From: a virus
Taxonomy: Duplodnaviria > Caudoviricetes
Reading direction: 5' to 3' (one strand)
DNA length: 57,985 nucleotides
IMG/VR virus record: IMGVR_UViG_3300010397_000011
Span: 1-57,985 of that record
Below are positions 36,495 to 45,662 of this stretch, one piece after another; positions within the stretch are counted from its first letter, which is position 1; each line of letters begins with the position of its first letter. The notes under the pieces were generated by a model. The model saw only the letters and a list, made by a program, of their open reading frames with translations. It was not told the DNA's origin and made no database searches. A program made the position numbers and the translations under genes.

Positions 36495-37451
36495 CTACAG
36501 CCCACGGACAAGGGCCACTGCCTTCGCCTTCAGGGGCTCAGGGCGCAGCAGGGTCCGACCGAGGTAGGTGTCGGAGTTCCGGTAGCCACGGGCGTGGTCG
36601 AGGTACTCGACGGCCGCGTCCACGAGGCCGAGCCCCGTGCCGCGGTGCCCGTCCGTCGTCAGGCTGTCCATGTAGATGTGGCGGAAGATCGAGCGGGCCT
36701 CCTCGATGTTGTCGCGGACCCGATCCGAGAACGTGCCCTCAGGCGGGGCGGGGATGAAGTCGCTGACGAAGTGGTTGAACTTCACCTCGTCGATCTTCAT
36801 CCCGAACAACTCGGTGGCCAACTCCTGCCACGCCTTGAACTCGTCGCGCACACCGGCCATCGCCGCCTTCGCCTCGTCGATCCGACCGAGGACGTCGCCG
36901 GTGTGGCGGAACACGAACTGGCGGCCCGTGCGGTCGCCCTCCATGCTGGCGGCCTGGTAGGTGTTCCAGCAGACGACGCGCACTGAGGTCGGGAGGACCT
37001 TGCACGCGCCCTCGCCGTTGTGGGAGTTGAGGAACGCGATGAACGGGTAGGTCTCGGTGTCGTCACCGCAGATGACTTCGGGCTCGTCGAGGTAGGCGAC
37101 GGCCCACACCTGCGCTCCACCCTTGCATGAGCCGGCGGTCTCGAACTTCGCGCCGAGGCCGAGGATGACCTCGATCACTTCGCCCATCACTCGGTTGGGC
37201 ACGAGGCCGAACGTGTCGGACACGGGGCCGAGGGGTGCTTGCGTGTCGTCACGCACGACGACCTGATGGTCGGTGAGGGCGACGAAGTCGTCGCCGATCT
37301 TGTGGTACAGGGGCCGGAGTTCCGGCTCCCACGTCAGGCCAGCCTTGACCCTGGCGTCTTCCCAGTCGGTCGGGTAGTCGTCGAGCACGAGCCCTTCGCC
37401 GTGCCACATCGGCTGACGAACGCTGAATCCGGTGTCGAAGTATGCGGGCAT
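36495..37451 (-). CDS. DUF932 (phage/plasmid TIGR03299-like) protein
   Basis: MWHGEG, AGLTW, FETAGS..GG..VW, NSHNG, TSVRVVCWNT and FRHT motifs. Confidence 0.88.
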   Translation of the reverse strand: MPAYFDTGFSVRQPMWHGEGLVLDDYPTDWEDARVKAGLTWEPELRPLYHKIGDDFVALTDHQVVVRDDTQAPLGPVSDTFGLVPNRVMGEVIEVILGLGAKFETAGSCKGGAQVWAVAYLDEPEVICGDDTETYPFIAFLNSHNGEGACKVLPTSVRVVCWNTYQAASMEGDRTGRQFVFRHTGDVLGRIDEAKAAMAGVRDEFKAWQELATELFGMKIDEVKFNHFVSDFIPAPPEGTFSDRVRDNIEEARSIFRHIYMDSLTTDGHRGTGLGLVDAAVEYLDHARGYRNSDTYLGRTLLRPEPLKAKAVALVRGL

Positions 37452-37470
37452 GGTCTCTCTCCTTTTCGGT

Positions 37471-37527
37471 GGAGCCTGATTGCTCCGTGCGTGGCACCGA
37501 CCGATCAGGCCGGTGCCACGAGGCGCA
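37471..37527 (-). ncRNA. Repeated intergenic two-hairpin RNA motif, copy B
   Basis: UGCGCCU-CGUGGCACCG..CGGUGCCACG-CAC-GGAGC-N6-GCUCC. Confidence 0.7.
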
Positions 37528-37531
37528 ACAA

Positions 37532-38116
37532 TCACGCGGTCTTCTTCGCTGCTCCCTTCTTCGGAATCGGGGTGACCTCGCGCTTGCTGGCCGGGGTCTT
37601 CTTCGCCGCGGCCTTCGCCGGGGTCTTCTTCGCCGTCTGCTTCGCGGCGGGCTTGCGGGTGACCTTCTTGACCGGCTCGGCCTCGGTGGTCTCGGCGCTG
37701 GTCGCCTCGTCGGTGGAGGGCTCCTCAACCTTCTGACCCTTCACCGTCGCGATCCCGTGGGCCGCGTTGATCGCGTCCAGGTTCGGGGTGTCGGGCAGGG
37801 GCTCGCCGTTCGCCTTCGCGGTCTTCAGTGCGCGGGCCTCGGCCATCGCGAGGTTGAGCACCTCGACCGGCGCGACCTTCCGTGCCTTCTTGCCACCGCT
37901 GCTCTTGCGGCCCTCGCCGCGGGGTGCGGGCTCGGGCAGATCGATCGGGGTCCACTTCTTCCCGTCGCGGACGAACATCTCCCGCATCGGCTTCTGGACC
38001 TTCTTGCCGGTTGCCTCACGGCACTCGTAGCAGTGGGGGGTCCGACTGGCCGGAGGCTGGTCGGCCTCGACCTCACGGGAGTGTCCGCACGTCATGGTGA
38101 ATCGGTAGGTGGGCAT
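37532..38116 (-). CDS. Zn-ribbon protein with histone-H1-like Lys/Ala tail
   Basis: CGH...CYEC; KKTPAKAAAKKTPA tail. Confidence 0.65.
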   Translation of the reverse strand: MPTYRFTMTCGHSREVEADQPPASRTPHCYECREATGKKVQKPMREMFVRDGKKWTPIDLPEPAPRGEGRKSSGGKKARKVAPVEVLNLAMAEARALKTAKANGEPLPDTPNLDAINAAHGIATVKGQKVEEPSTDEATSAETTEAEPVKKVTRKPAAKQTAKKTPAKAAAKKTPASKREVTPIPKKGAAKKTA

Positions 38117-38152
38117 GGTCTCTCTCTTTCGTAAGCCGTCACTGTGACGGTC

Positions 38153-38208
38153 GGAGCCTGAGTGCTCCGTGCGTGGCGCGGACCCGAGGGCCCGTGCCAC
38201 GAGGCGCA
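38153..38208 (-). ncRNA. Repeated intergenic two-hairpin RNA motif, copy C
   Basis: UGCGCCU-CGUGGCACGG..CCGCGCCACG-CAC-GGAGC-N6-GCUCC. Confidence 0.7.
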
Positions 38209-38212
38209 CCAC

Positions 38213-38728
38213 TCAAGCGAGGGTGTCGGTGGAGGGGTCGTACGTCGTGGAGCCCACGACTTCGAACATCGGGGCTCGGACGATGGGCTCGAATCGGTTC
38301 GGGTACAGCCGCTTCACTTCGGCCTCAGCCTCGGCCCGTGTCGCGTGGGTCGCGATGTGCAACTTCCTCCACACAACCCTGGTCGAGGAGAGCCGACCCG
38401 ACGCGTACCACGCGGCGGTCTCGTCGTCGTCGTCTCGGCCGAGGATCTTCACTGCTCGCACCGTGGTCTCGGTGGCGGCGCGGACTTGCATCGGGTTGCG
38501 CCGCACCTCCTCTTCCCGATGCTTGCTCGCCGTCATCAGGCCGACGAGGAGGACGTGGACTTCACGCTTCGTCAGGACCAGGGGCTCACGGGTTGAGTAG
38601 TCCGCGATCCACACGACCCACCGCTGGGCTCCCGACCTCGTGGTGCGCGGGAACCACTGGTCGATCTGCCCCGCGTCCACCGCTAGGTCCAGTCCGTTGC
38701 TTACAGATTCGTTCGTCAGATTCGGCAT
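38213..38728 (-). CDS. Hypothetical early protein
   Basis: AGGAGAGAGACCATGCC start motif. Confidence 0.65.
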   Translation of the reverse strand: MPNLTNESVSNGLDLAVDAGQIDQWFPRTTRSGAQRWVVWIADYSTREPLVLTKREVHVLLVGLMTASKHREEEVRRNPMQVRAATETTVRAVKILGRDDDDETAAWYASGRLSSTRVVWRKLHIATHATRAEAEAEVKRLYPNRFEPIVRAPMFEVVGSTTYDPSTDTLA

Positions 38729-38738
38729 GGTCTCTCTC

Positions 38739-39215
38739 CTATCGGTTGCGCCGCTGTGCTGCGCGGCGGGCTTTCGCGTCTGCTGCCACTCTGTCCTTGC
38801 GGTTCTGAATCATCGCGGCGGCCTCCTCGGCCACTGCCCTGAACGCGTCATCGACCGAGACCTCCTCGTCTCCGATGAACGCACGGATCGAGGTGATCTC
38901 CCCGCTGTCGATGTCCCGCTCAAGGGAGTCGAGGGCGTCAGCCTTCGCGGCCCGCTCGACGAGGGACCGAAGGATGCGGTGCTCCCTCGCCAGGTTCTGC
39001 CGCTCTGCCGCGAACGCCGCGGCCTCAGCCGCGTGCCGGGCAATGAATGCGGGGTCGGTGGTGATGTTGAACCCGCCCTCGACTTCGGTGAGGGTGCGCT
39101 CGGCAATGCTGATGACCTCTCGGAGCTCCCGCTTCAGGGAGTCCTCGCTCGCCGCTTGCTCGGTCGCCATTGCGTCGAGCCGTTCGGCAATCAGTCGGTC
39201 GGTGTTGGTCGTCAT
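38739..39215 (-). CDS. Helical hypothetical early protein
   Basis: 158 aa with RBS GAAAGGA. Confidence 0.65.
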   Translation of the reverse strand: MTTNTDRLIAERLDAMATEQAASEDSLKRELREVISIAERTLTEVEGGFNITTDPAFIARHAAEAAAFAAERQNLAREHRILRSLVERAAKADALDSLERDIDSGEITSIRAFIGDEEVSVDDAFRAVAEEAAAMIQNRKDRVAADAKARRAAQRRNR

Positions 39216-39228
39216 GGTCGTTGTCCTT

Positions 39229-39306
39229 TCAGAACAGGTTGCCCACCACGATGTGGTGGACGAGGTGGACGGTCAGGGCCAGGCGGTGCAGGGCGCACTG
39301 AAACAT
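39229..39306 (-). CDS. Possible 25-aa leader peptide
   Basis: GGAGAG RBS, MFQCALHRLALTVHLVHHIVVGNLF; stop overlaps the RBS of the next gene. Confidence 0.35.
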   Translation of the reverse strand: MFQCALHRLALTVHLVHHIVVGNLF

Positions 39307-39309
39307 TGG

Positions 39310-39763
39310 TGCTCTCCGATCGGGTGGTCGTGGTCGTGGTCGTGGTCTCTGTCGTGGAGTGGAAGCACTCCGTGCGAGGCACCGACTGGGCGCAGCACAC
39401 GGTCACTGGGAATCGGGGCTCTCTTGTTTCAGCCCATCTGCCGGTCGCCCGGTTTCTTCTCCGTCCCTACGTGTGCTGCACCCAGCCGATGCCCCGAGGC
39501 GCAGGGCTTCACTGGTGTTGCAGCGGGAGTGTCGTGACGTTCGGGGTCACACACACTCTCGACTTGCTCGACTCCGCCCCTCACGGGACTTCGGGTAACA
39601 CGTGCACCCCGTCGCTCGGCTGCACTTCCCCGGACCTCCTGCACTTCGGCTCAGCCCTTGCATCACGCTCGGCCTTCGCAGGTCCCAGTCCGCTCTCAGT
39701 AGGTGGACTTCCCTTTGGGGGCTCCATCCCTACCTACCTCTTTAGTTTTCAAGGTTCTTTACC
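39310..39763 (-). ncRNA. Large structured leader/ncRNA containing extended motif copy D (39356-39503)
   Basis: No credible ORF; many nested stems, GNRA loops (CCC-GUGA-GGG, CCGG-GCGA-CCGG) and G-U pairs on the minus strand. Confidence 0.68.
39741..39757 (-). promoter_or_regulatory. boxA-like antitermination element
   Basis: GAACCTTGAAAACTAAA resembles the Gram-positive rrn boxA (GTTCTTTGAAAACT); just downstream of the predicted start site. Confidence 0.55.
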
Positions 39764-39769
39764 CCCCTA

Positions 39770-39798
39770 AAGGTAGGGTCGGGGCTGGGGCGATGCCA
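39770..39798 (-). promoter_or_regulatory. Putative sigmaA-type early promoter
   Basis: TGGCAT-17 nt-TACCTT. Confidence 0.5.
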
Positions 39799-39995
39799 CC
39801 ACAGACGCACATCCCGAGGACTTTGTTTGGCAGCAGCTGCCGAAAGTTCGCGGCGCTCTGAGCAGGGGAAACGACCCAAAACGCCCAGCCCAGGGAGACC
39901 AACTTGACAGTTATCGGCGCCAGCGGAGAGCGGCTACAACTTGGCAGCCGCTGCCGAGAGCGACGAGCCCGGCAGATAGCGGGTGCTGTCTTTAA

Positions 39996-40478
39996 TCAGA
40001 CCGGAGTGAGGACCGCGGCGAGGAGCCCGCGCAGCGCGTCCATGTCGACGGCCCACGCCGCGCACGCGAGCGCGGACGTCGGCCAGTCGTCGTGCTTCCC
40101 GTAACCGATGATCGGCACGTCACGCTCGACCATCACGCTGGCCTCTTGCATCGTGCCGTCCGAGCCGGGGAGCACCACGCCGACCTCGGCCACTGACCCG
40201 ACGAGCGCGTTGCGAAACGGGATCGTCAGGCCCGTGCGGAGTGCGATCGACAGTCCGCTCGACGGCGGCTGATACGGAGACGCGGGGATCAGTCCGATCG
40301 CGAGCCCACCGACCGACGTCGCTCCTCGAGCAGCCGCGTCCATCACGCCGCCGAGCCCGCCGCACACGAGGGCCAGGTCGTCGCGCTCACCGACCACTCG
40401 GCCGACGTCGTACGCGTCGAGCTCTATCTCAGGGGGGCAGTTCTTCCCCTTGCCGATCACGCACACGACGCGCCTCAT
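39996..40478 (-). CDS. LOG/SLOG-family (TIGR00725-like) nucleotide phosphoribohydrolase
   Basis: CVIG, LVCGGLGGVMDAAARGA...GG..IGLIP, RNA and PGSDGTMQE motifs. Confidence 0.85.
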   Translation of the reverse strand: MRRVVCVIGKGKNCPPEIELDAYDVGRVVGERDDLALVCGGLGGVMDAAARGATSVGGLAIGLIPASPYQPPSSGLSIALRTGLTIPFRNALVGSVAEVGVVLPGSDGTMQEASVMVERDVPIIGYGKHDDWPTSALACAAWAVDMDALRGLLAAVLTPV

Positions 40479-40744
40479 GCGAGACACCCTGCGTGGCTGA
40501 GGAGCGCGTAGCAGAACGCGAACGTGAGTACCTCTTTGCGGATGCGAGGATCGTCGAGCGGGACTCCCTCCGCGCTCATGGCGGTGATCTTGTCAGAGCA
40601 CTTCGTCTGGATGATGGCGAGCACGGCCGCCTCGACGCCAGCGTCAGCAATCGCGGACCAGGCTTGCACCGGGCCGTGGATGTGCAGCGTGCATCCCTGC
40701 ACGCTCTGCCTCAGCCGATCGGCAAGGGCCTCGGCGTCAGGCAC
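40475..40744 (-). CDS. Small hypothetical protein in the modification operon
   Basis: Overlaps the folE stop and the LOG start. Confidence 0.55.
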   Translation of the reverse strand: MPDAEALADRLRQSVQGCTLHIHGPVQAWSAIADAGVEAAVLAIIQTKCSDKITAMSAEGVPLDDPRIRKEVLTFAFCYALLSHAGCLA

Positions 40745-41372
40745 CGAACACGTGAGGCTTCGAGGTGGCGAGGGACTGGAACTCCCGCCGCCACGGGTCA
40801 TCGCGCAGGATGCCCCGATACCCGGTGACGACGACGACCTCCTGGCTCGGCGCGTTGGACTTGCAGATCAGACACATGTGGATCGACGCGAGGGAGAGCG
40901 CGACGCCCTTCGGTTCGAGCACCGCTTCGAGCGCGTCGAGGGTGTCGACGAGCAGACGCTCGTTCAACTGCGGCTGGCGTGCGAGGTAGTTCAGTCCCTT
41001 CTTCACCTTCGAGTACCCCGTGATCTTCTGGTCGGGCACGTACGCGAAGTGGGCCACGCCGAGAGCGGGCATCAGGTGGTGCTCGCACATCGACACGTAG
41101 TGGCAGTCCGTCACGGTGATGAGGACGTCGTCCTTCGCTGGGTTCGGGAACGTCTTCCACGGGATCTCGATGTCGCACCACGCCGCGTTGATGATGTCGC
41201 CGTACATCTCCGCGATGCGCCGTGGAGTGTTCGCCATCACCTCGGCCTTGTCGGACTGGCCGAGCCCTTGAAGCAGCAGGGTCACGCCACGCTCAAGCGT
41301 GTCGAGGTCGACCGGCTTCGGCGGGAGCGGCGCGCCGACGGGGGCGTGGTCGTTGTTCGTGACGGTGGTCAT
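40737..41372 (-). CDS. folE: GTP cyclohydrolase I (divergent)
   Basis: TPRR, SMCEHHLMP and HMC Zn ligands; SK and ERL present. Confidence 0.92.
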   Translation of the reverse strand: MTTVTNNDHAPVGAPLPPKPVDLDTLERGVTLLLQGLGQSDKAEVMANTPRRIAEMYGDIINAAWCDIEIPWKTFPNPAKDDVLITVTDCHYVSMCEHHLMPALGVAHFAYVPDQKITGYSKVKKGLNYLARQPQLNERLLVDTLDALEAVLEPKGVALSLASIHMCLICKSNAPSQEVVVVTGYRGILRDDPWRREFQSLATSKPHVFGA

Positions 41373-42143
41373 TCAGGTTCCTTTCACCATTGCGTCGAGG
41401 GTGTCGGTCCAGAGTTGACGTCGAGCCATGACGGCCGCGACCGCGGCGCGCCGGGCTGACGTCCAGTCCTCCTCGGTTTCGCACACGGCCTCGACCAGCC
41501 CGCGGGCCAGCGGCCCGTGGCTCTCACCGTCGAGTTCGATGTGCCTGTCGAGGTAGTGGCGCAGGGTCGCGCCACCGTTGCTGAGCCCAGCGAGGAGGGG
41601 CTCGAACATGGCGGGGATCAGTTGCTCGCGTCCGAGCGTGAACGCCGCGGCGATGGCGGGCAGGTTGCCCGTGCCGATGATCCCGAACGTGGTCGTGAGG
41701 AACCGCTCGGCGCCCGGCGGTGCGCCGAACTTCCGTGCGATGCGGGGCACCTCGGGGAGATGCCACTGCTGGCCTGGCGCGTGGAGGTGGCGAAGGGTCG
41801 CGTCGATGGCGGTGAGGTTCGCACCGGCCTCGACCATCGCCAGCCGGTACATCGACACGTGGTCGATGAACCCCTCGCCGTAGGTGTCGCACTCCTCGCC
41901 GGTCTTGATCTCGTTCACGAAGCGGGCCGCGGCCGGCGACCGTGACGGGAGCCACGGGACGGACGTGCACGTCGTGCGCAGCTGCAACGCAGTGAGCAGA
42001 GACATGAAGTCCCACACGGCCCACACGTGGTGCTCCATGAACAGGCGCAGGCGGGGCAGGGAGTCGAGCGCGTAGTAGAGCGGGTGCCCGACCACCTCGG
42101 CGCGTGTCGGTGCGACCGCTTCGGCCAGGTCGTCGAACGTCAC
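41373..42143 (-). CDS. DUF3050 heme-oxygenase-like diiron protein
   Basis: HPLY, FMEHHVWAVWDFMSLL, NEIKTGEECD, AAAFTLGRE and YLDRHIELDGESHG motifs. Confidence 0.88.
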   Translation of the reverse strand: MTFDDLAEAVAPTRAEVVGHPLYYALDSLPRLRLFMEHHVWAVWDFMSLLTALQLRTTCTSVPWLPSRSPAAARFVNEIKTGEECDTYGEGFIDHVSMYRLAMVEAGANLTAIDATLRHLHAPGQQWHLPEVPRIARKFGAPPGAERFLTTTFGIIGTGNLPAIAAAFTLGREQLIPAMFEPLLAGLSNGGATLRHYLDRHIELDGESHGPLARGLVEAVCETEEDWTSARRAAVAAVMARRQLWTDTLDAMVKGT

Positions 42144-43030
42144 GCCGCTGCCCTCCGTTCGGCCAGGACCTGCACCGCGTTCTGTGGGAGGTCGAACCCG
42201 CCGCCGCTCACCGCGTACATCCGCAGGCCGGGTTCGTCGTCGGGCCTGTCGGCGCGCACGACGGGGCCGTGCCGTTCACGTGCCCACGCCTCGACCTCGC
42301 TGTAGGTCGCGAGGCCCAGCGCGTCACGCACGGGCAACGGTGGCCCGCCGCGTCGGCCGCCGTACAACTCGCGTGGCTCGAACCCGAGGCGGCGCAGGAG
42401 ACGGCCGTGCTTCGCCATGCTCACGTTGTCACCGATGCGGACCTGCTCGCTCCGTCCCGTCGTGGAGTCGAACAGCGGGTAGTAGCCCCAGCGTCGACCG
42501 GCCAGCCACGACGAGGAGTCCACGCTGTAGAGCGGGAGCCCGCCGAGCACCGCGTCACCCGTCGCGCCGAGCCCGTGCCACACGATCTCGCTGCCCTTCA
42601 CCCGCATCATCGAGTCGACCATCCACCGCATACACACCGACGGCGGGACACCCGTGCCAGCCATCCCACCGAGACAGCCGTACGGGTACTCGGCCGCGAT
42701 CTTGCGCAGCACCTTCGGGTCCTCGTCGCGCATGTGGTAGACGGGCAGCACCGCGCAGCCCAGCCGTTCGAGCGTGCGCTGGTTCGCCATCGTCCCTTTC
42801 GAGTTGCCGATGACGTCGAGGTTGCACGCCGCGCTGAACAGGTGCTCCCACTTGTGGAGCCAGGCCGCGTACTCGTCGCACGTGATGACCGCGCCCTTCG
42901 TCATCGCTGAGTAGGCGCCCGAGTCCGCCCACATGTCGGGAGGCTCCCCGTCGATCGAGCAGCGGCGCGCGAACTCGTCGAGGTCGTGGTCGCGGTAGTA
43001 CCAGTACGAGAGCAGCAGCCGAACCCTCAC
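42140..43030 (-). CDS. dpdA: DpdA-like DNA guanine transglycosylase (TGT fold)
   Basis: LLSYWY, DSGAYS, LDVIG, PVYH, LGG, HGLG and SVDSSSW motifs. Confidence 0.82.
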   Translation of the reverse strand: MRVRLLLSYWYYRDHDLDEFARRCSIDGEPPDMWADSGAYSAMTKGAVITCDEYAAWLHKWEHLFSAACNLDVIGNSKGTMANQRTLERLGCAVLPVYHMRDEDPKVLRKIAAEYPYGCLGGMAGTGVPPSVCMRWMVDSMMRVKGSEIVWHGLGATGDAVLGGLPLYSVDSSSWLAGRRWGYYPLFDSTTGRSEQVRIGDNVSMAKHGRLLRRLGFEPRELYGGRRGGPPLPVRDALGLATYSEVEAWARERHGPVVRADRPDDEPGLRMYAVSGGGFDLPQNAVQVLAERRAAA

Positions 43031-43656
43031 GACGTCAGCGCCTCAGCCTTTGCTACGTCGTCGGCGCCCTCGAGTGAGGACCACCACGCGTTCATCCGGT
43101 CGAGGAGGTGGGGCGGGAGACGCAGGCGGAACGCGGGCCACGCGTCGGCGGGGTCGTGCTTGCCGACCTTGTCCGCGAGGTCGTCGAGGATCGGCGGTGC
43201 GATCGACAGGCGCAGGTCGTCGAGGTCCATCGCCGTGAACCCGATCGCCTCGCCGTACTTCTCCACGAGGTCGTCGAGCGCGTCGGCCAACGTGCCCCGC
43301 TCCCACACTCCCTCACCGACACGGTTCAACGCGATGCCCGCGGCCTCGGCGTGCGCGTCGTCGACAGACGCCCAGCCGACAACGACGGGTGTGCACCACC
43401 GCCCGTCGATGATGCGCAGCGAGTCGTCGGCCAGGAACGGTGACGGGTCCGCGTCGTGGAGCTCTGCGTCGAGGAGATGGTCACGTCGGCCGTGGCCGCT
43501 GACGATCATGCCCGTGCGGTCGTCGAGCACGACGGGCTCGATCCACCCGAACGCGTCGACGGACTTCTCCATCGCTTCGGCGTCGTGGCCCTTCGCGTTG
43601 CGTGGCGCGGACACGAGGTCAGCGACGGGTAGGTAGACGATCCGCCGTTCGGCCAT
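43027..43656 (-). CDS. ParB-like N-terminal domain protein (DNA-modification associated)
   Basis: PRNAKGHD..M.KSV..FGWIEPVV...IVSGHGR; ALNR..E..WE. Confidence 0.82.
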   Translation of the reverse strand: MAERRIVYLPVADLVSAPRNAKGHDAEAMEKSVDAFGWIEPVVLDDRTGMIVSGHGRRDHLLDAELHDADPSPFLADDSLRIIDGRWCTPVVVGWASVDDAHAEAAGIALNRVGEGVWERGTLADALDDLVEKYGEAIGFTAMDLDDLRLSIAPPILDDLADKVGKHDPADAWPAFRLRLPPHLLDRMNAWWSSLEGADDVAKAEALTS

Positions 43657-43668
43657 TGGGCGGGAACC

Positions 43669-45306
43669 CTAGCCCCGACGCTTGCGCTGGGCGATGTGCC
43701 TGTCGAGCGCGTCGGACAACTCGCCGGCCGTCCAGTTCGGGTCGATGCGCAGGCGCCACTTCAACGCGGCCGCGATCTGCCGGTCGCTCGGTTCGCGGTG
43801 TCGCCACGGCGCGTCGAGGCTGACGAGCGCGCCGACGTTCTGCTTGCGGATGAAGTCCTCGGCCACGCCCTGCGCGGTTTCGAGTGCGACGTCCGCGATC
43901 AGGGTCTTCGGTCGTCCCTCGTGCGGGGCCACCTCCGCGATCCAGCCCCTGATGTCGTGGCGCACCACGACGCGGGGTCGGTTCTTCCCGCCGAGCGACC
44001 GTTCGTAGGAGACGACGTTGCCGGTGCGCCGATCGGTGATCCGCACCCACGCGATGCCCGTCCCTCGCAACTGCCTGAACATGTCGGCCTCGACCGCGGT
44101 GAGCCTGCCCAGCGCGACCAGTCTGTCGTCGCGTTCCTGAAGCACAACGCTCAGCGGTGTCGTCTCGGCCCGCTTGCGGTCCTCCTCCTCCTCGATCCCG
44201 AACAGCGACGGCACCGTGACGAGGGAGTGGGCGAGCGTGGCACCGACGACATCGAGGACCAGCAGGTCGTCCTTCTCGGGATGACGGCGCGTGCCACGGC
44301 CGACCATCTGCGCGTACAACGCGCGGCTCTTCGTCGGGCGGGCCACGACGATGCAGTCCGTGCGCGGGTCGTCGTACCCCTCGGTGAGCACCGCGCAGTT
44401 CGCGAGCACCTGCACCTCGCCGTTCGCGTACTGGCGAAGCAGAGCCCGCCGCTGGTCGAGCGGGGTCTCGCCCGACACCCACTCGGCTCGCACGCCGCAC
44501 CGCACGAAGTAGTTCGCGACCATCGCCGCGGTCGCGACGGTCGGGGTGAACACGAGGGTCTGCCTGTCCGACGCGTGCTGACGCCACGCGCGGTAGACGA
44601 ACTGGTCGACGTTGCCGTCCTCGAGTGCGGCGCCGACCTGGCCCTGGTCGTAGTCACCGTGCCGTGTGCGCACCGACCCGAGGTCGAGGCTGTCCATGTG
44701 GACGCGCAGCCCGCGCACGTCAGCGAGGTACCCGGCGCGGATGCCCCACAGCATGTCGGCCGTGAACGTGATCTCGTCGAACAGGTCGTCGAGGCCCTTG
44801 CCGTCGCCACGGTCGGGTGTCGCGGTCACGCCGAGGAGGAGCGGGCCGTTCACCTTCCCTGCGCCGAACGCGTCGAGCACACGGCGGTACGTCGCGGCCG
44901 CGGTGTGGTGGGCCTCGTCGACGACGACGAGGTTGAACAGCGGGGTCGCCGCCAGCCGTGCAAGCCGTGGCTGACGAGCGAGGGTCTGCACGGAGGCGAC
45001 GACCACCTGACTGTGAACGTAGTCGAGGTCTGCCTTGACGATCCCGACATCCACGCCGGGCCACACCTCGCGCACCTTCGCCGCGGCCTGCGCGACCAAC
45101 TCGTCGCGGTGGGCGAGGATCAGCGTGCGACCTCCTCGCCGCTCGGCCAGCGCCGCGAAGATGATGGTCTTGCCGAGCCCGGTCGCGGCGACGACCAACT
45201 GCTTGCGGCACCCGCGTTCCTCGGCAGCCGCGATGCGGTCGAGCGCGTCGACCTGGTAGTCGCGCAACTCGAAGCGCACGTGCGGTCCGAACGTCAGCGT
45301 GCTCAC
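43669..45306 (-). CDS. SF2 DEAD/DEAH helicase
   Basis: LRDYQ, ATGLGKT, DEAHH, TATP, LTEGYD and QMVGRG motifs. Confidence 0.93.
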   Translation of the reverse strand: MSTLTFGPHVRFELRDYQVDALDRIAAAEERGCRKQLVVAATGLGKTIIFAALAERRGGRTLILAHRDELVAQAAAKVREVWPGVDVGIVKADLDYVHSQVVVASVQTLARQPRLARLAATPLFNLVVVDEAHHTAAATYRRVLDAFGAGKVNGPLLLGVTATPDRGDGKGLDDLFDEITFTADMLWGIRAGYLADVRGLRVHMDSLDLGSVRTRHGDYDQGQVGAALEDGNVDQFVYRAWRQHASDRQTLVFTPTVATAAMVANYFVRCGVRAEWVSGETPLDQRRALLRQYANGEVQVLANCAVLTEGYDDPRTDCIVVARPTKSRALYAQMVGRGTRRHPEKDDLLVLDVVGATLAHSLVTVPSLFGIEEEEDRKRAETTPLSVVLQERDDRLVALGRLTAVEADMFRQLRGTGIAWVRITDRRTGNVVSYERSLGGKNRPRVVVRHDIRGWIAEVAPHEGRPKTLIADVALETAQGVAEDFIRKQNVGALVSLDAPWRHREPSDRQIAAALKWRLRIDPNWTAGELSDALDRHIAQRKRRG

Positions 45307-45662
45307 GGTTCCTCCCGTGCGTGTAGTTGTCGGGTCTCGAAGATGCCGTCGAGGTCGGGCTCGTGCAGCATGATGAGCCGCGCGTAGTACGACGTGTAGT
45401 TGTTGTTCAACTTGAAGTCGTCGCCTCCGGTGCGCAGCGCGACGTTCCACCGCAGCACCTCGAACAGCATCTTCATGCCGATGCGTCGCACGCCGCGCGC
45501 GTGGGCCTGGCGGGCGAGCGCGACCAGTTCCCGGTACACGTGCGGGTTGTCTTGGTGGAACGCGAGGAACGCCTGCTCGATCGTCAGTCCGTCAGGCGGG
45601 CCGACGTGCCCGGTCGGGTAGTCCACGACGGGGTACGAGGCGAAGTCCAGTTGCTCGTTCAC
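45303..45662 (-). CDS. Conserved phage hypothetical protein
   Basis: FHQDNPHVY...FEVLRW...FKLNNNYTSYYAR. Confidence 0.65.
   Translation of the reverse strand: MNEQLDFASYPVVDYPTGHVGPPDGLTIEQAFLAFHQDNPHVYRELVALARQAHARGVRRIGMKMLFEVLRWNVALRTGGDDFKLNNNYTSYYARLIMLHEPDLDGIFETRQLHAREEP

What the first reader, a model, noticed from the sequence alone, without database searches (positions are those of the whole stretch)
39996..43656. Candidate new DNA-base-replacement pathway: ParB-DpdA-DUF3050-FolE-orf-LOG with no QueD/QueE/QueC
Seen: six abutting or overlapping genes under one leaderless promoter, and no queD, queE, queC or queF anywhere in this complete genome. Established: phage DpdA swaps guanine in DNA for a free base, normally preQ0-derived and made by FolE-QueD-QueE-QueC; LOG-family enzymes release bases from nucleoside monophosphates; DUF3050 proteins are heme-oxygenase-like diiron enzymes. 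From memory, to be verified: DUF3050 homologues (MgoB/HamA type) occur in N-N-bond (diazeniumdiolate) clusters, Streptomyces 8-azaguanine biosynthesis uses a GCH-I homologue plus a nucleosidase and NO, and TGT enzymes accept 8-azaguanine. Inference: FolE opens and deformylates the guanine imidazole ring, the diiron protein re-closes or oxidises it (possibly to a triazole), LOG frees the base, and DpdA installs it in DNA. The product would be a guanine analogue such as 8-aza-dG, which I do not know as a reported phage DNA base.
Basis: partly seen in the sequence, partly recalled or inferred. Interest (0 to 1): 0.93.

Follow-up and report, generated by a model that had tools for sequence, protein, structure and literature searches.

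The report
Phage guanine-swap cassette without queuosine genes
An uncultivated high-GC phage joins a DNA guanine-swapping enzyme pair to an unusual set of GTP-remodelling enzymes instead of the usual 7-deazaguanine genes, so it probably puts an undescribed guanine substitute into its DNA.

Summary
The six tightly packed minus-strand genes are real: ParB-like, DpdA-like transglycosylase, DUF3050, GTP cyclohydrolase I-like (FolE*), a small conserved protein (orf5) and a LOG-type SLOG protein. The genome is complete, and I found no QueC, QueD, radical-SAM, QueF or NO-synthase gene in it. The 'leaderless promoter' is not supported.

The set recurs in 10 viral records and one metagenome contig, in five gene orders, without QueC/QueD. 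New here:
- orf5 is a real family, always directly after FolE*. It occurs fused to DUF3050 or to NUDIX hydrolases.
- FolE*-orf5-SLOG is a portable triad. In 7 of 7 bacterial loci it sits with a bicupin, a TPP enzyme and two hydrolases, which resembles the azacitidine route from GTP.
- FolE* is 69% identical to the bacterial triad FolE but 26% to FolE of a preQ0-type mycobacteriophage cassette.
- DUF3050 is the family of HamA, an iron N-oxygenase from an N-N-bond pathway.

Best reading: a new base-supply route for DpdA that starts from ring-opened GTP. The product is unknown. 8-azaguanine is the leading candidate (about 0.3). I could not test homology of orf5 to PtnB. This scan noted the same cassette earlier on other DNA (e1-5920088, e1-6210364). 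I found no paper describing it.

The parts
43027..43656 (-). ParB-N-like protein (209 aa), candidate DpdB-like partner of DpdA
   Evidence: PHROG 620 ParB-like, 5e-22; no Pfam hit. A ParB-like ORF is detected beside DpdA in 8 of 11 cassette-bearing contigs; it is not detected in L003 and L007, whose contigs start inside DpdA. Bacterial DpdB is a ParB-like ATPase required for DpdA activity (PMC10164549 passages).
42140..43030 (-). DpdA-like DNA-guanine transglycosylase (296 aa), highly divergent
   Evidence: PHROG 887 at 4.1e-35 and PHROG 7068 at 2.1e-27. Closest isolates are mycobacteriophage DpdAs at about 36% identity. D36 and D171, equivalent to Asp95 and Asp256 of Salmonella DpdA, are invariant in 8 of 8 cassette DpdAs. 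The model is weak (pLDDT 63), but its top Foldseek hits are TGTs.
41373..42143 (-). DUF3050 / HamA-type heme-oxygenase-like iron oxygenase (256 aa)
   Evidence: PF11251 at 1.2e-68. PDB 9VWB (HamA) matches at 4.6e-36. HamA residues H40, E84, H96, R167, H199 and R240 are all matched in the printed alignment.
40737..41372 (-). FolE*: divergent GTP cyclohydrolase I paralogue (211 aa)
   Evidence: PF01227 at 1.2e-37. It scores 116 bits against the TIGR00063 cut-off of 181.6. Zn and catalytic residues are kept. Subfamily-invariant motifs GYSKVKK, QPQLNERL and HxCLxCKS occur in 13 of 13 sequences. Identity is 69% to the Bacteriovorax triad FolE and 26% to phage Bipper FolE.
40475..40744 (-). orf5: small conserved protein (about 89 aa from GTG 40744), obligate neighbour of FolE*
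   Evidence: GC3 is 0.80-0.87. The alignment of 6 phage copies has invariant G17, C18, H21 and G24. A profile search found 38 representative clusters at E<=1e-3. It occurs fused to DUF3050 or NUDIX. It lies directly after FolE* in all 23 records that hold it.
39996..40487 (-). SLOG cluster-4 / TIGR00725-type LOG-like phosphoribohydrolase (160-163 aa)
   Evidence: PF18306 at 3.6e-25. TIGR00725 scores 69 bits, below the 106.9 cut-off. R92 and the E115 of PGSDGTMQE are present. It belongs to the FolE*-orf5-SLOG triad in phages and bacteria.
43669..45450 (-). Upstream superfamily-2 helicase; probably the same transcription unit, context only
   Evidence: ResIII, Helicase_C and DEAD. Its stop lies 12 nt before the ParB start. 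It is conserved upstream in L001 and L002.

Best explanation
The six genes form a phage DNA guanine-replacement cassette whose base comes from a route other than the 7-deazaguanine (preQ0) pathway.

Proposed flow:
1. (Inferred) FolE*, a divergent GTP cyclohydrolase I that always travels with the small protein orf5, opens the imidazole ring of GTP and removes C8, but does not commit the intermediate to the pterin (Amadori) branch.
2. (Inferred) The HamA-type iron oxygenase DUF3050, which in other contigs is fused to orf5, oxidises or N-N-couples the freed 5-amino nitrogen, giving a re-closed or N-modified guanine analogue at the nucleotide level.
3. (Inferred) A NUDIX enzyme, phage-encoded in one lineage and otherwise presumably the host's, trims the triphosphate.
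4. (Inferred from family) The LOG-type SLOG enzyme cuts the base from ribose 5-phosphate.
5. (Inferred from family and conserved catalytic aspartates) DpdA, with its ParB-like DpdB-type partner, exchanges genomic guanine for that base after replication.

The product is unknown. 8-azaguanine is the leading single candidate, at about 0.3. Shown here: the genes, their families, their recurrence in five gene orders, the fusions, the absence of Que genes, and the paralogue status of FolE*. Every chemical step is inferred.
For: Recurrence:
- The full set DpdA + DUF3050 + FolE* + orf5 + SLOG is found in 10 viral records (G000-G009) and one metagenome contig (L025), in five gene orders. A ParB-like ORF is detected in 8 of these 11; two of the three without it (L003, L007) are cut at the contig start inside DpdA.
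- All 9 high-GC viral DUF3050 loci with enough flank carry the set. 5 further loci are cut upstream and cannot be judged.

No preQ0 route:
- QueC 0 of 10 and QueD 0 of 10 records. Radical_SAM 0 of 9. QueF 0 of 5.
- These include the 100%-complete window and a 93%-complete record.

FolE* is not the deazaguanine-cassette FolE:
- 26% identity to Bipper FolE, although the Bipper DpdA is among the closest relatives at 36%.
- 69% identity to the Bacteriovorax triad FolE.
- Below the NCBIfam FolE cut-offs.
- Invariant subfamily motifs in 13 of 13 sequences.

Functional linkage:
- orf5 is fused to DUF3050 in 6 full-length representative proteins plus one truncated 180-aa protein (P0147), and in the contigs L018 and L025. 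It is fused to NUDIX in 2 proteins.
- A free-standing NUDIX gene follows DUF3050 in L019.

The triad FolE*-orf5-SLOG is a module:
- In 7 of 7 bacterial loci it sits with a bicupin, a TPP enzyme, an amidohydrolase and an isochorismatase-like hydrolase.
- This parallels the azacitidine route, in which a GCH-I yields triaminopyrimidine, a cupin remodels the ring and a TPP enzyme decarboxylates.
- A LOG-type N-glycosidase, and a NUDIX enzyme, make sense only if the ribosyl-phosphate bond survives the FolE* step.

DUF3050:
- It matches HamA (9VWB) at 4.6e-36 with the HamA iron and 2OG residues conserved.
- The fusion model has pLDDT 92.5 and TMt 0.90 to 9VWB.

DpdA: the catalytic Asp equivalents are invariant in 8 of 8.

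The ptn operon order (GCH-I-like, small iron protein, LOG-like 8-azaGMP nucleosidase) matches FolE*-orf5-SLOG.
Against: - No chemistry is shown.
- No nitrogen donor enzyme is encoded: NO synthase 0 of 5 records, and none appeared among the Pfam hits of the 70 window ORFs scanned.
- HamA's reported activity is N-oxygenation of a carrier-bound amino acid, with weak biochemical support for N-N coupling.
- Mammalian TGT exchange of 8-azaguanine is reversible, which would work against stable replacement.
- PtnC did not cleave the ring-opened monophosphate, so the order of the SLOG and DUF3050 steps is open.
- In lineage 2, DUF3050 lies about 1.4-1.5 kb (L006, L007) to 2.0 kb (L003) downstream of SLOG. 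In L007, the one contig read through, HNH and small-terminase genes lie between them.
- 66 of 80 viral DUF3050 loci lack the cassette entirely, so DUF3050 is not specific to it.
- The DpdA model is of low confidence, and Pfam and PDB sequence searches with the single protein found nothing.
- Most related records are fragments.
Confidence: 0.6

Rival explanations
1. The cassette works as described, but the inserted base is not 8-azaguanine. It could be another derivative of ring-opened GTP: an N7-oxygenated guanine, a 5-nitroso- or 5-nitro-diaminopyrimidinone acting as a purine mimic, or a ring-rearranged product.
For: HamA is reported as an N-oxygenase. Related HDOs such as RohS and HrmI are N-oxygenases and are among the structural neighbours. 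No N donor or NO synthase is encoded. The same triad feeds a cupin/TPP ring-rearranging set in bacteria.
Against: A DpdA-type exchange needs a stable base with an N9-H-like nucleophile and an intact guanine Watson-Crick face. Open-ring or triazine products fit this poorly (inference). There is no direct evidence for any of these products.
Confidence: 0.3
2. This is ordinary 7-deazaguanine modification. DpdA inserts preQ0 made by host QueD/E/C, FolE only boosts precursor supply, and DUF3050, orf5 and SLOG do something unrelated or tailor the base afterwards.
For: Many phages carry DpdA with few or no preQ0 genes, and reliance on the host has been proposed for them (PMC6884629 passages). The closest DpdA relatives sit in preQ0-type cassettes.
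Against: FolE* is a different paralogue from the preQ0-cassette FolE (26% against 69%; below FolE cut-offs). It is tied to orf5 and SLOG also in bacterial operons that show no Que genes among the neighbours read. The whole set co-moves with DpdA through five rearrangements. Mycobacterium smegmatis lacks the preQ0 pathway, and the DpdA-only phage Orion has no deazaguanine. The host of this phage is unknown, but its nearest helicase relatives are phages of Actinomycetota.
Confidence: 0.08
3. FolE*-orf5-SLOG-DUF3050 makes a free antimetabolite or small molecule for host takeover or counter-defence. DpdA/ParB is merely adjacent and uses another substrate, or none.
For: The bacterial triad operons have no DpdA. 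8-azaguanine and azacitidine are free antimetabolites. DUF3050 occurs in 66 viral loci without DpdA.
Against: In every assessable high-GC viral locus the triad plus DUF3050 is linked to DpdA despite gene-order shuffling: 9 of 9. No export or self-resistance gene was seen in the cassette.
Confidence: 0.08
4. The DpdA-like enzyme modifies tRNA (TGT-like) rather than DNA.
For: It belongs to the TGT superfamily, and the structural neighbours of the weak model are tRNA TGTs.
Against: PHROG families 887 and 7068 are the phage DpdA-type families. The only PDB sequence match of the profile, though weak (E 0.33), is the DNA-guanine transglycosylase 7UI4. A ParB-like, DpdB-type partner is adjacent in 8 of 11 cassettes.
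Confidence: 0.04

Closest known systems
Phage 7-deazaguanine DNA modification systems (DpdA1-4 with FolE-QueD-QueE-QueC; PMC6884629, PMC10516641)
   Same: A TGT-family DpdA sits beside a GTP cyclohydrolase I gene in a phage early or DNA-metabolism module. The presumed mechanism is post-replicative exchange of guanine for a free base. The closest DpdA relatives (about 36%) lie in such cassettes.
   Different: QueD, QueE, QueC and QueF are all absent. The FolE is another paralogue. DUF3050, orf5 and SLOG are added, and none of them is named in the passages I read of those papers. Their supplementary gene tables were not seen.
Bacterial Dpd system DpdA/DpdB (PMC10164549; PDB 7UI4)
   Same: The transglycosylase is paired with a ParB-like protein. 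The catalytic Asp95 and Asp256 equivalents are conserved.
   Different: The sequence is very distant (profile E 0.33 to 7UI4). It is much shorter and lacks the large Ins8 insertion described for DpdA. There is no DpdC and no restriction module. The base supply is different.
8-azaguanine cluster ptnABCDEF / 8-azgA-K of Streptomyces (PMC7109123, PMC7674941)
   Same: The order is GCH-I-like enzyme, then small protein, then LOG-like NMP nucleosidase. C8 is excised from GTP. A pyrophosphatase takes part (the PtnD N-domain there, NUDIX here).
   Different: There is no NO synthase, no efflux pump and no radical-SAM gene. A HamA-type oxygenase and DpdA/ParB are present instead. Sequence homology to PtnA/B/C was not tested here because no ptn sequence was reachable.
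Azacitidine cluster azaA-I of Streptomyces mobaraensis (PMC13749301)
   Same: A specialised GCH-I diverts ring-opened GTP away from pterin, and an O2-using enzyme then remodels the ring. The bacterial relatives of the triad carry a cupin plus a TPP enzyme, like AzaA and AzaB/C.
   Different: The phage has none of the cupin, TPP or hydrolase genes: 0 hits in the window and 9 cassette loci. Base release is by a separate SLOG enzyme. No sequence comparison with Aza proteins was made.
HamA / MgoB (DUF3050) of diazeniumdiolate pathways (fragin, leudiazen; PMC12522199, PMC3298696)
   Same: Same Pfam family and fold, and the same iron- and 2OG-binding residues.
   Different: No NRPS carrier protein and no HamC/MgoC N-oxygenase is nearby. 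The partner here is orf5, and the likely substrate is a nucleotide or pyrimidine.

Membership tests
DpdA / TGT superfamily | Significant profile similarity to TGT/DpdA families | tested here: met
   PHROG 887 at 4.1e-35 and PHROG 7068 at 2.1e-27. tblastn finds annotated phage DpdA genes in 229 records. Against this: there is no Pfam hit at E<=0.01, no PDB hit with the single sequence, and the profile reaches only E 0.33 to 7UI4.
DpdA / TGT superfamily | General acid/base Asp and nucleophile Asp (Asp95 and Asp256 of Salmonella DpdA) | tested here: met
   D36 (in DSGAY) and D171 (in SVDSS) are invariant in 8 of 8 cassette DpdAs. They align to DCGAF and SIDST of 7UI4.
DpdA / TGT superfamily | TIM-barrel TGT fold | tested here: inconclusive
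   The model has pLDDT 63.3 and pTM 0.61. The top Foldseek hits are all TGTs, but TM-scores are only 0.36-0.39.
DpdA / TGT superfamily | Exchanges guanine in DNA for a free base | not testable with these tools
   Needs biochemistry or nucleoside mass spectrometry.
DpdB-type ParB-like partner | ParB-N-type NTPase domain encoded beside DpdA | tested here: met
   PHROG 620 at 5e-22. A ParB-like ORF is detected beside DpdA in 8 of 11 cassettes; it is not detected in L003 and L007, whose contigs start inside DpdA. The sequence reads IVSGHGRR at the position of the ParB GxxR motif; the motif is recalled and read. ATPase activity was not tested.
Canonical FolE (GTP cyclohydrolase I, TIGR00063 equivalog) | Pfam GTP_cyclohydroI domain with Zn ligands and catalytic His/Glu | tested here: met
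   PF01227 at 129.5 bits against a cut-off of 27. C96, H98, H99, E138, H165 and C167 are invariant in 13 of 13 and align to the CEHH and HxC motifs of solved GCH-I.
Canonical FolE (GTP cyclohydrolase I, TIGR00063 equivalog) | Score above the NCBIfam equivalog or subfamily cut-off | tested here: not met
   TIGR00063: 116.4 against 181.6. NF006826: 131.6 against 162. NF006825: 119.8 against 174. NF006824: 102.6 against 202.
Canonical FolE (GTP cyclohydrolase I, TIGR00063 equivalog) | Product is 7,8-dihydroneopterin triphosphate | not testable with these tools
   Needs an enzyme assay.
preQ0 / 7-deazaguanine pathway | QueD, QueE and QueC (and QueF for preQ1) encoded with DpdA | tested here: not met
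   QueC 0 of 10, QueD 0 of 10, Radical_SAM 0 of 9 and QueF 0 of 5 records. The control genomes gave hits.
DUF3050 / HamA heme-oxygenase-like oxygenases | PF11251 domain above cut-off | tested here: met
   231.7 bits against a cut-off of 22.2.
DUF3050 / HamA heme-oxygenase-like oxygenases | HamA iron ligands and 2OG-binding residues (H40, E84, H96, R167, H199, R240) | tested here: met
   All six are matched in the printed alignment to 9VWB, using the residue list from PMC12522199. They are conserved across the cassette copies. The paper's Glu184 could not be placed unambiguously.
DUF3050 / HamA heme-oxygenase-like oxygenases | Seven-helix HDO fold | tested here: met
   The model is of a natural orf5-DUF3050 fusion homologue (P0190), not of the window protein. 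It has pLDDT 92.5. Foldseek gives 9VWB at E 6.9e-14 and TMt 0.90, followed by CADD, HrmI and UndA.
LOG / SLOG phosphoribohydrolases | SLOG/LOG domain with the PGGxGTxxE-type motif and the conserved Arg | tested here: met
   PF18306 at 88.8 bits against 26.3. PGSDGTMQE and R92 are present; the motif itself is recalled. TIGR00725 scores 69 bits, below the 106.9 cut-off.
8-azaguanine (ptn) pathway | Sequence homology of FolE*, orf5 and SLOG to PtnA, PtnB and PtnC | not tested
   No ptn sequence could be fetched. Only the gene order and enzyme classes match. Earlier scan notes assert homology; I have not checked this.
8-azaguanine (ptn) pathway | Dedicated NO source (NO synthase) | tested here: not met
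   PF02898: 0 of 5 records.

The most novel reading that the evidence does not exclude
The phage replaces part of its genomic guanine with 8-aza-2'-deoxyguanosine, a triazole base. The base would be built enzymatically, without NO synthase, by a HamA-type iron enzyme working with the small protein orf5 on the ring-opened GTP made by a dedicated GCH-I paralogue. This would be the first non-7-deaza base installed by a DpdA enzyme, and the first assigned function for orf5 and for a nucleotide-acting DUF3050.
Probability: 0.3. Interest if true: 0.95.

Novelty: new variant of a known kind. Interest (0 to 1): 0.82.

Why it matters
All DpdA-type DNA modifications described so far are 7-deazaguanines made through QueD/E/C (passages read). 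A DpdA fed by a different GTP-remodelling route would add a new chemical class of natural DNA base. That has consequences for restriction and CRISPR evasion, for sequencing artefacts, and for enzymatic DNA labelling.

It would also give first functions to three unexplained families:
- the small orf5 protein;
- DUF3050 members outside NRPS clusters;
- the TIGR00725 SLOG proteins.

It would further tie phage DNA modification to the recently solved azanucleoside pathways (8-azaguanine, azacitidine). The cassette is compact, at six genes and about 3.7 kb, so it can be tested directly by heterologous expression and nucleoside mass spectrometry.

Tried and rejected
- Megablast of the cassette against isolate phages found no match.
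- DUF3050 occurs in isolate phages only in the Ralstonia jumbo phages RP12 and RP31, and there it has no FolE, DpdA or orf5 nearby.
- Complex prediction on FolE* + orf5 returned 'no answer' (score 0.00). This is no evidence either way.
- The ESM Atlas search with orf5 gave only scores below 0.9, to ARM-like helical repeats. I discarded these.
- To look for PtnB among orf5 relatives I ran two cluster look-ups and a profile-word search with four high-GC members. None returned a Streptomyces-labelled protein, so homology of orf5 to PtnB remains untested.
- NCBIfam has no model for orf5, DUF3050, DpdA or the ParB-like protein.
- The promoter scan found nothing.
- The single-sequence PDB search with DpdA found nothing.
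- I considered and rejected a new route to 7-deazaguanine through DUF3050. The presence of a LOG-type N-glycosidase and of NUDIX argues that the ribosyl bond is kept, whereas the pterin/CPH4 branch destroys it (inference).
- Supplementary files were not opened. The ptn supplementary alignments (PMC7109123) and the gene tables of PMC6884629 and PMC10516641 could bear on PtnB homology, and on whether such phages were already listed as 'DpdA only'.

What I saw of each paper:
- Passages only: PMC3298696, PMC10516641, PMC4520260, PMC7109123, PMC7674941, PMC6884629, PMC13725569, PMC13108848, PMC13755311, PMC8136771, PMC10164549.
- Abstract plus the whole Results section: PMC13749301.
- Parts 1-2 of 4 of the text: PMC12522199.
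- 'Not in print' rests on searches of the held library only.

Full report
**Observation**

The window is a complete IMG/VR virus record: 57,985 bp, direct terminal repeats, estimated 100% complete. GC content is about 68%, and nearly all genes lie on the minus strand. At 39996-43656 there are six minus-strand ORFs:

| Coordinates | Size | Family call |
|---|---|---|
| 43027-43656 | 209 aa | ParB-like: PHROG 620, 5e-22; no Pfam hit |
| 42140-43030 | 296 aa | TGT/DpdA-like: PHROG 887, 4.1e-35; PHROG 7068, 2.1e-27; no Pfam hit |
| 41373-42143 | 256 aa | DUF3050: PF11251, 1.2e-68 |
| 40737-41372 | 211 aa | GTP cyclohydrolase I-like: PF01227, 1.2e-37 |
| 40475-40801 | 108 aa as listed | No family |
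| 39996-40487 | 163 aa | SLOG cluster 4: PF18306, 3.6e-25 |

The genes overlap by 4-13 nt or abut. The small ORF has coding-type GC3 of 0.80-0.87. In the window, L001 and L002 it most likely starts at a GTG at 40744, inside the last codons of FolE.

The 'one leaderless promoter' is not supported. The scan found no promoter-like site, and a helicase gene ends 12 nt upstream. QueC, QueD/PTPS, Radical_SAM and QueF each gave 0 matches in the genome, while the control genomes gave hits.

**Recurrence**

Viral-contig scans were run with the DUF3050 protein, the orf5 alignment and a DUF3050 alignment. A metagenome scan was also run. I then scored six-frame ORFs of all loci with my own HMMs.

DpdA + DUF3050 + FolE* + orf5 + SLOG together are found in 10 viral records (G000-G009) and one metagenome contig (L025). 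A ParB-like ORF is detected in 8 of these 11. It is not detected in L003 and L007, whose contigs start inside DpdA. The gene orders are:

| Order | Records | Arrangement |
|---|---|---|
| (i) | window, L001, L002 | ParB-DpdA-DUF3050-FolE-orf5-SLOG |
| (ii) | L003, L006, L007 | (ParB)-DpdA-FolE-orf5-SLOG, then DUF3050 about 1.4-2.0 kb downstream; in L007, the one read through, HNH, a small ORF and TerS lie between |
| (iii) | L019, L020 | DpdA-ParB-SLOG-FolE-orf5-DUF3050-NUDIX |
| (iv) | L018 | SLOG-FolE-[orf5 fused to DUF3050]-DpdA-ParB |
| (v) | L037 | ParB-DpdA-FolE-orf5-DUF3050-SLOG |

L025 has DpdA-ParB-SLOG-FolE-[orf5 fused to DUF3050].

Identity between lineages is about 30% for DpdA, about 42% for DUF3050 and about 43% for SLOG, but 62-74% for FolE.

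Of the 14 high-GC viral DUF3050 loci, 9 have enough flank, and all 9 carry the set. The other 5 are cut just upstream of DUF3050.

Against specificity: 66 of the 80 viral DUF3050 loci kept (of 102 found) are low-GC and have none of the other genes within 9 kb. The same holds for the Ralstonia jumbo phages RP12 and RP31.

Que genes in the cassette-bearing records:
- QueC: 0 of 10.
- QueD: 0 of 10.
- Radical_SAM: 0 of 9 (G005 was not run).
- QueF: 0 of 5.

One related record is 93% complete. The others are fragments.

**The small ORF is a real family and links the enzymes**

Six phage copies align with invariant G17, C18, H21 and G24. These four stay invariant across 39 sequences. A profile search of 1.84 billion representatives found 38 clusters at E<=1e-3, 25 of them at E<=1e-10.

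Pfam scans of 10 of the longer hits showed:
- An N-terminal orf5 domain fused to DUF3050 in 6 full-length proteins, plus one truncated 180-aa protein (P0147) that holds orf5 and the start of DUF3050.
- orf5 fused to a NUDIX hydrolase in 2 proteins.
- One long protein of 1516 aa with unrelated weak hits.

More fusions appeared, and the ORFs in L018 and L025 are such fusions. A model of one fusion has pLDDT 92.5. Its oxygenase part matches HamA (9VWB) with TMt 0.90.

In all 23 records that hold orf5, FolE* lies directly upstream. It was detected by HMM in 22 of them. In the cut contig L028 it was detected only by tblastn, as a 30-residue tail.

**FolE\* is a distinct paralogue, and the triad is portable**

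A genome-contig scan with the orf5 alignment found 7 bacterial MAG loci, from Elusimicrobiota, Bdellovibrionota, Myxococcota and one unnamed MAG. In 7 of 7, FolE* at 67-71% identity to the phage protein is followed at once by orf5. SLOG was detected in 6 of 7; it is missing from L011, whose contig starts inside FolE.

In the same 7 loci the triad sits with four further genes:
- an amidohydrolase;
- a gentisate-dioxygenase-like bicupin;
- an isochorismatase-like hydrolase;
- a TPP enzyme.

L011 is cut at the contig start. None of those four genes occurs in the window or in the 9 viral cassette loci examined.

This operon resembles the published azacitidine route. There the GCH-I AzaE yields mainly 4-hydroxy-2,5,6-triaminopyrimidine, the cupin AzaA remodels it to a triazine, and the TPP enzyme AzaB/C decarboxylates it.

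The phage FolE* keeps the Zn and catalytic residues. It also carries subfamily-invariant changes in 13 of 13 sequences: GYSKVKK, QPQLNERL and HxCLxCKSNAP, where solved GCH-I enzymes read GLSKxxR, RPQxQER and HMCMxxRG. It falls below every NCBIfam FolE cut-off.

It is 69% identical to the Bacteriovorax protein but only 26% identical to the FolE of mycobacteriophage Bipper. The Bipper cassette is DpdA-QueD-QueE-FolE, and its DpdA is among the closest relatives of the window's DpdA at 36%. So the cassette did not simply lose Que genes. It joins a DpdA/ParB pair to a different GTP module.

**DUF3050**

The only solved member, 9VWB, matches at 4.6e-36. It is HamA of fragin biosynthesis, described as a mono-iron, 2-oxoglutarate-binding, heme-oxygenase-like enzyme. 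It adds oxygen to carrier-bound N-hydroxy-valine on the way to a diazeniumdiolate.

HamA residues H40, E84, H96, R167, H199 and R240 are all matched in the window protein, and they are conserved across the cassette copies. MgoB of the mgo operon is also DUF3050, and mgo makes the diazeniumdiolate leudiazen. The distal nitrogen of fragin is reported to come from nitrite, and the N-N-forming enzyme is still unsettled.

**DpdA and ParB**

Eight cassette DpdAs share invariant D36 and D171. In the weak profile match to 7UI4, these align to the general acid/base Asp95 and the nucleophile Asp256 of Salmonella DpdA. The model is poor (pLDDT 63), though its best structural matches are TGTs. Bacterial DpdA needs the ParB-like ATPase DpdB, which fits the adjacent ParB-like gene.

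**Mechanism (inferred)**

- GTP is opened and stripped of C8 by FolE*. orf5 is an obligate accessory. Because it occurs fused to DUF3050 and to NUDIX, it may hand the labile intermediate on or dock downstream enzymes. My one complex prediction gave no answer (see Tried and rejected).
- The HamA-type oxygenase acts on the exposed 5-amino nitrogen.
- NUDIX or host enzymes remove pyrophosphate.
- SLOG frees the base.
- DpdA/ParB installs it in DNA.

A LOG-type N-glycosidase is pointless after the Amadori step of a normal GCH-I. That is the main logical argument that the pterin/preQ0 branch is not used.

8-azaguanine is the leading candidate product, for these reasons:
- The ptn operon uses the same three enzyme classes in the same order.
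- Its LOG-like PtnC is specific for 8-azaGMP.
- Triaminopyrimidine or its ribotide closes to the triazole spontaneously with nitrosating species.
- The added enzyme here comes from N-N-bond pathways.

Points against 8-azaguanine:
- No NO synthase (0 of 5 records) or other N donor is encoded.
- HamA is shown only as an oxygenase.
- TGT exchange of 8-azaguanine is reversible.
- I could not obtain PtnA/B/C sequences, so homology is untested here.

I therefore give about 0.6 to the general model and about 0.3 to 8-azaguanine itself.

**Comparison and novelty**

This is a new variant of DpdA-type guanine replacement. The installing pair is of a known kind, while the supply pathway, and probably the base, are not. 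No paper in the held library contains both '8-azaguanine' and 'DpdA'. None joins DpdA with heme-oxygenase-like enzymes. The 7 papers that mention DUF3050 do not concern phage DNA.

Earlier notes of this scan describe the same cassette in other genomes (e1-5920088, e1-6210364) and the bacterial operon (e1-1243300). I reached both independently from sequence. Their claim of homology to PtnA/B/C remains unchecked by me.

Noticed in passing
L039-L104 (66 viral loci, GC 0.33-0.49): DUF3050 is common in low-GC viral contigs, some longer than 200 kb, with no DpdA, FolE*, orf5 or SLOG within 9 kb. This is a second, unexplained viral use of the family. Ralstonia jumbo phages RP12 and RP31 are similar.
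   Followed up: partly
L011-L017 (bacterial MAG loci), e.g. L015 9354-15856: A conserved seven-gene operon: FolE*-orf5-amidohydrolase-SLOG-bicupin-isochorismatase-like-TPP enzyme. It occurs in Elusimicrobiota, Bdellovibrionota and Myxococcota and parallels the azacitidine route from GTP. Its product is unknown.
   Followed up: partly
proteins P0200, P0212: DUF3050 is fused to a truncated-globin domain (PF01152), which hints at O2 or NO chemistry for some family members.
   Followed up: no
proteins P0135, P0140; L019 9035-9484: orf5 is fused to NUDIX hydrolases in bacteria, and a free-standing NUDIX gene directly follows DUF3050 in one phage lineage.
   Followed up: partly
window 39216-39995: About 780 nt downstream of the SLOG gene have no high-GC3 ORF, and the GC content of the region is lower (0.648 for 38001-40000). 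Function unknown.
   Followed up: no
window, outside the cassette (members not located): The Pfam tally of 51 other ORFs includes a glycosyltransferase-like domain, FkbM-type and other methyltransferases, and a PIG-L deacetylase. Together these suggest a glycan- or virion-modifying gene set.
   Followed up: no
window 36495-37535: A DUF932 protein is 96-97% identical in the related contigs L001 and L002, much more conserved than its neighbours.
   Followed up: no
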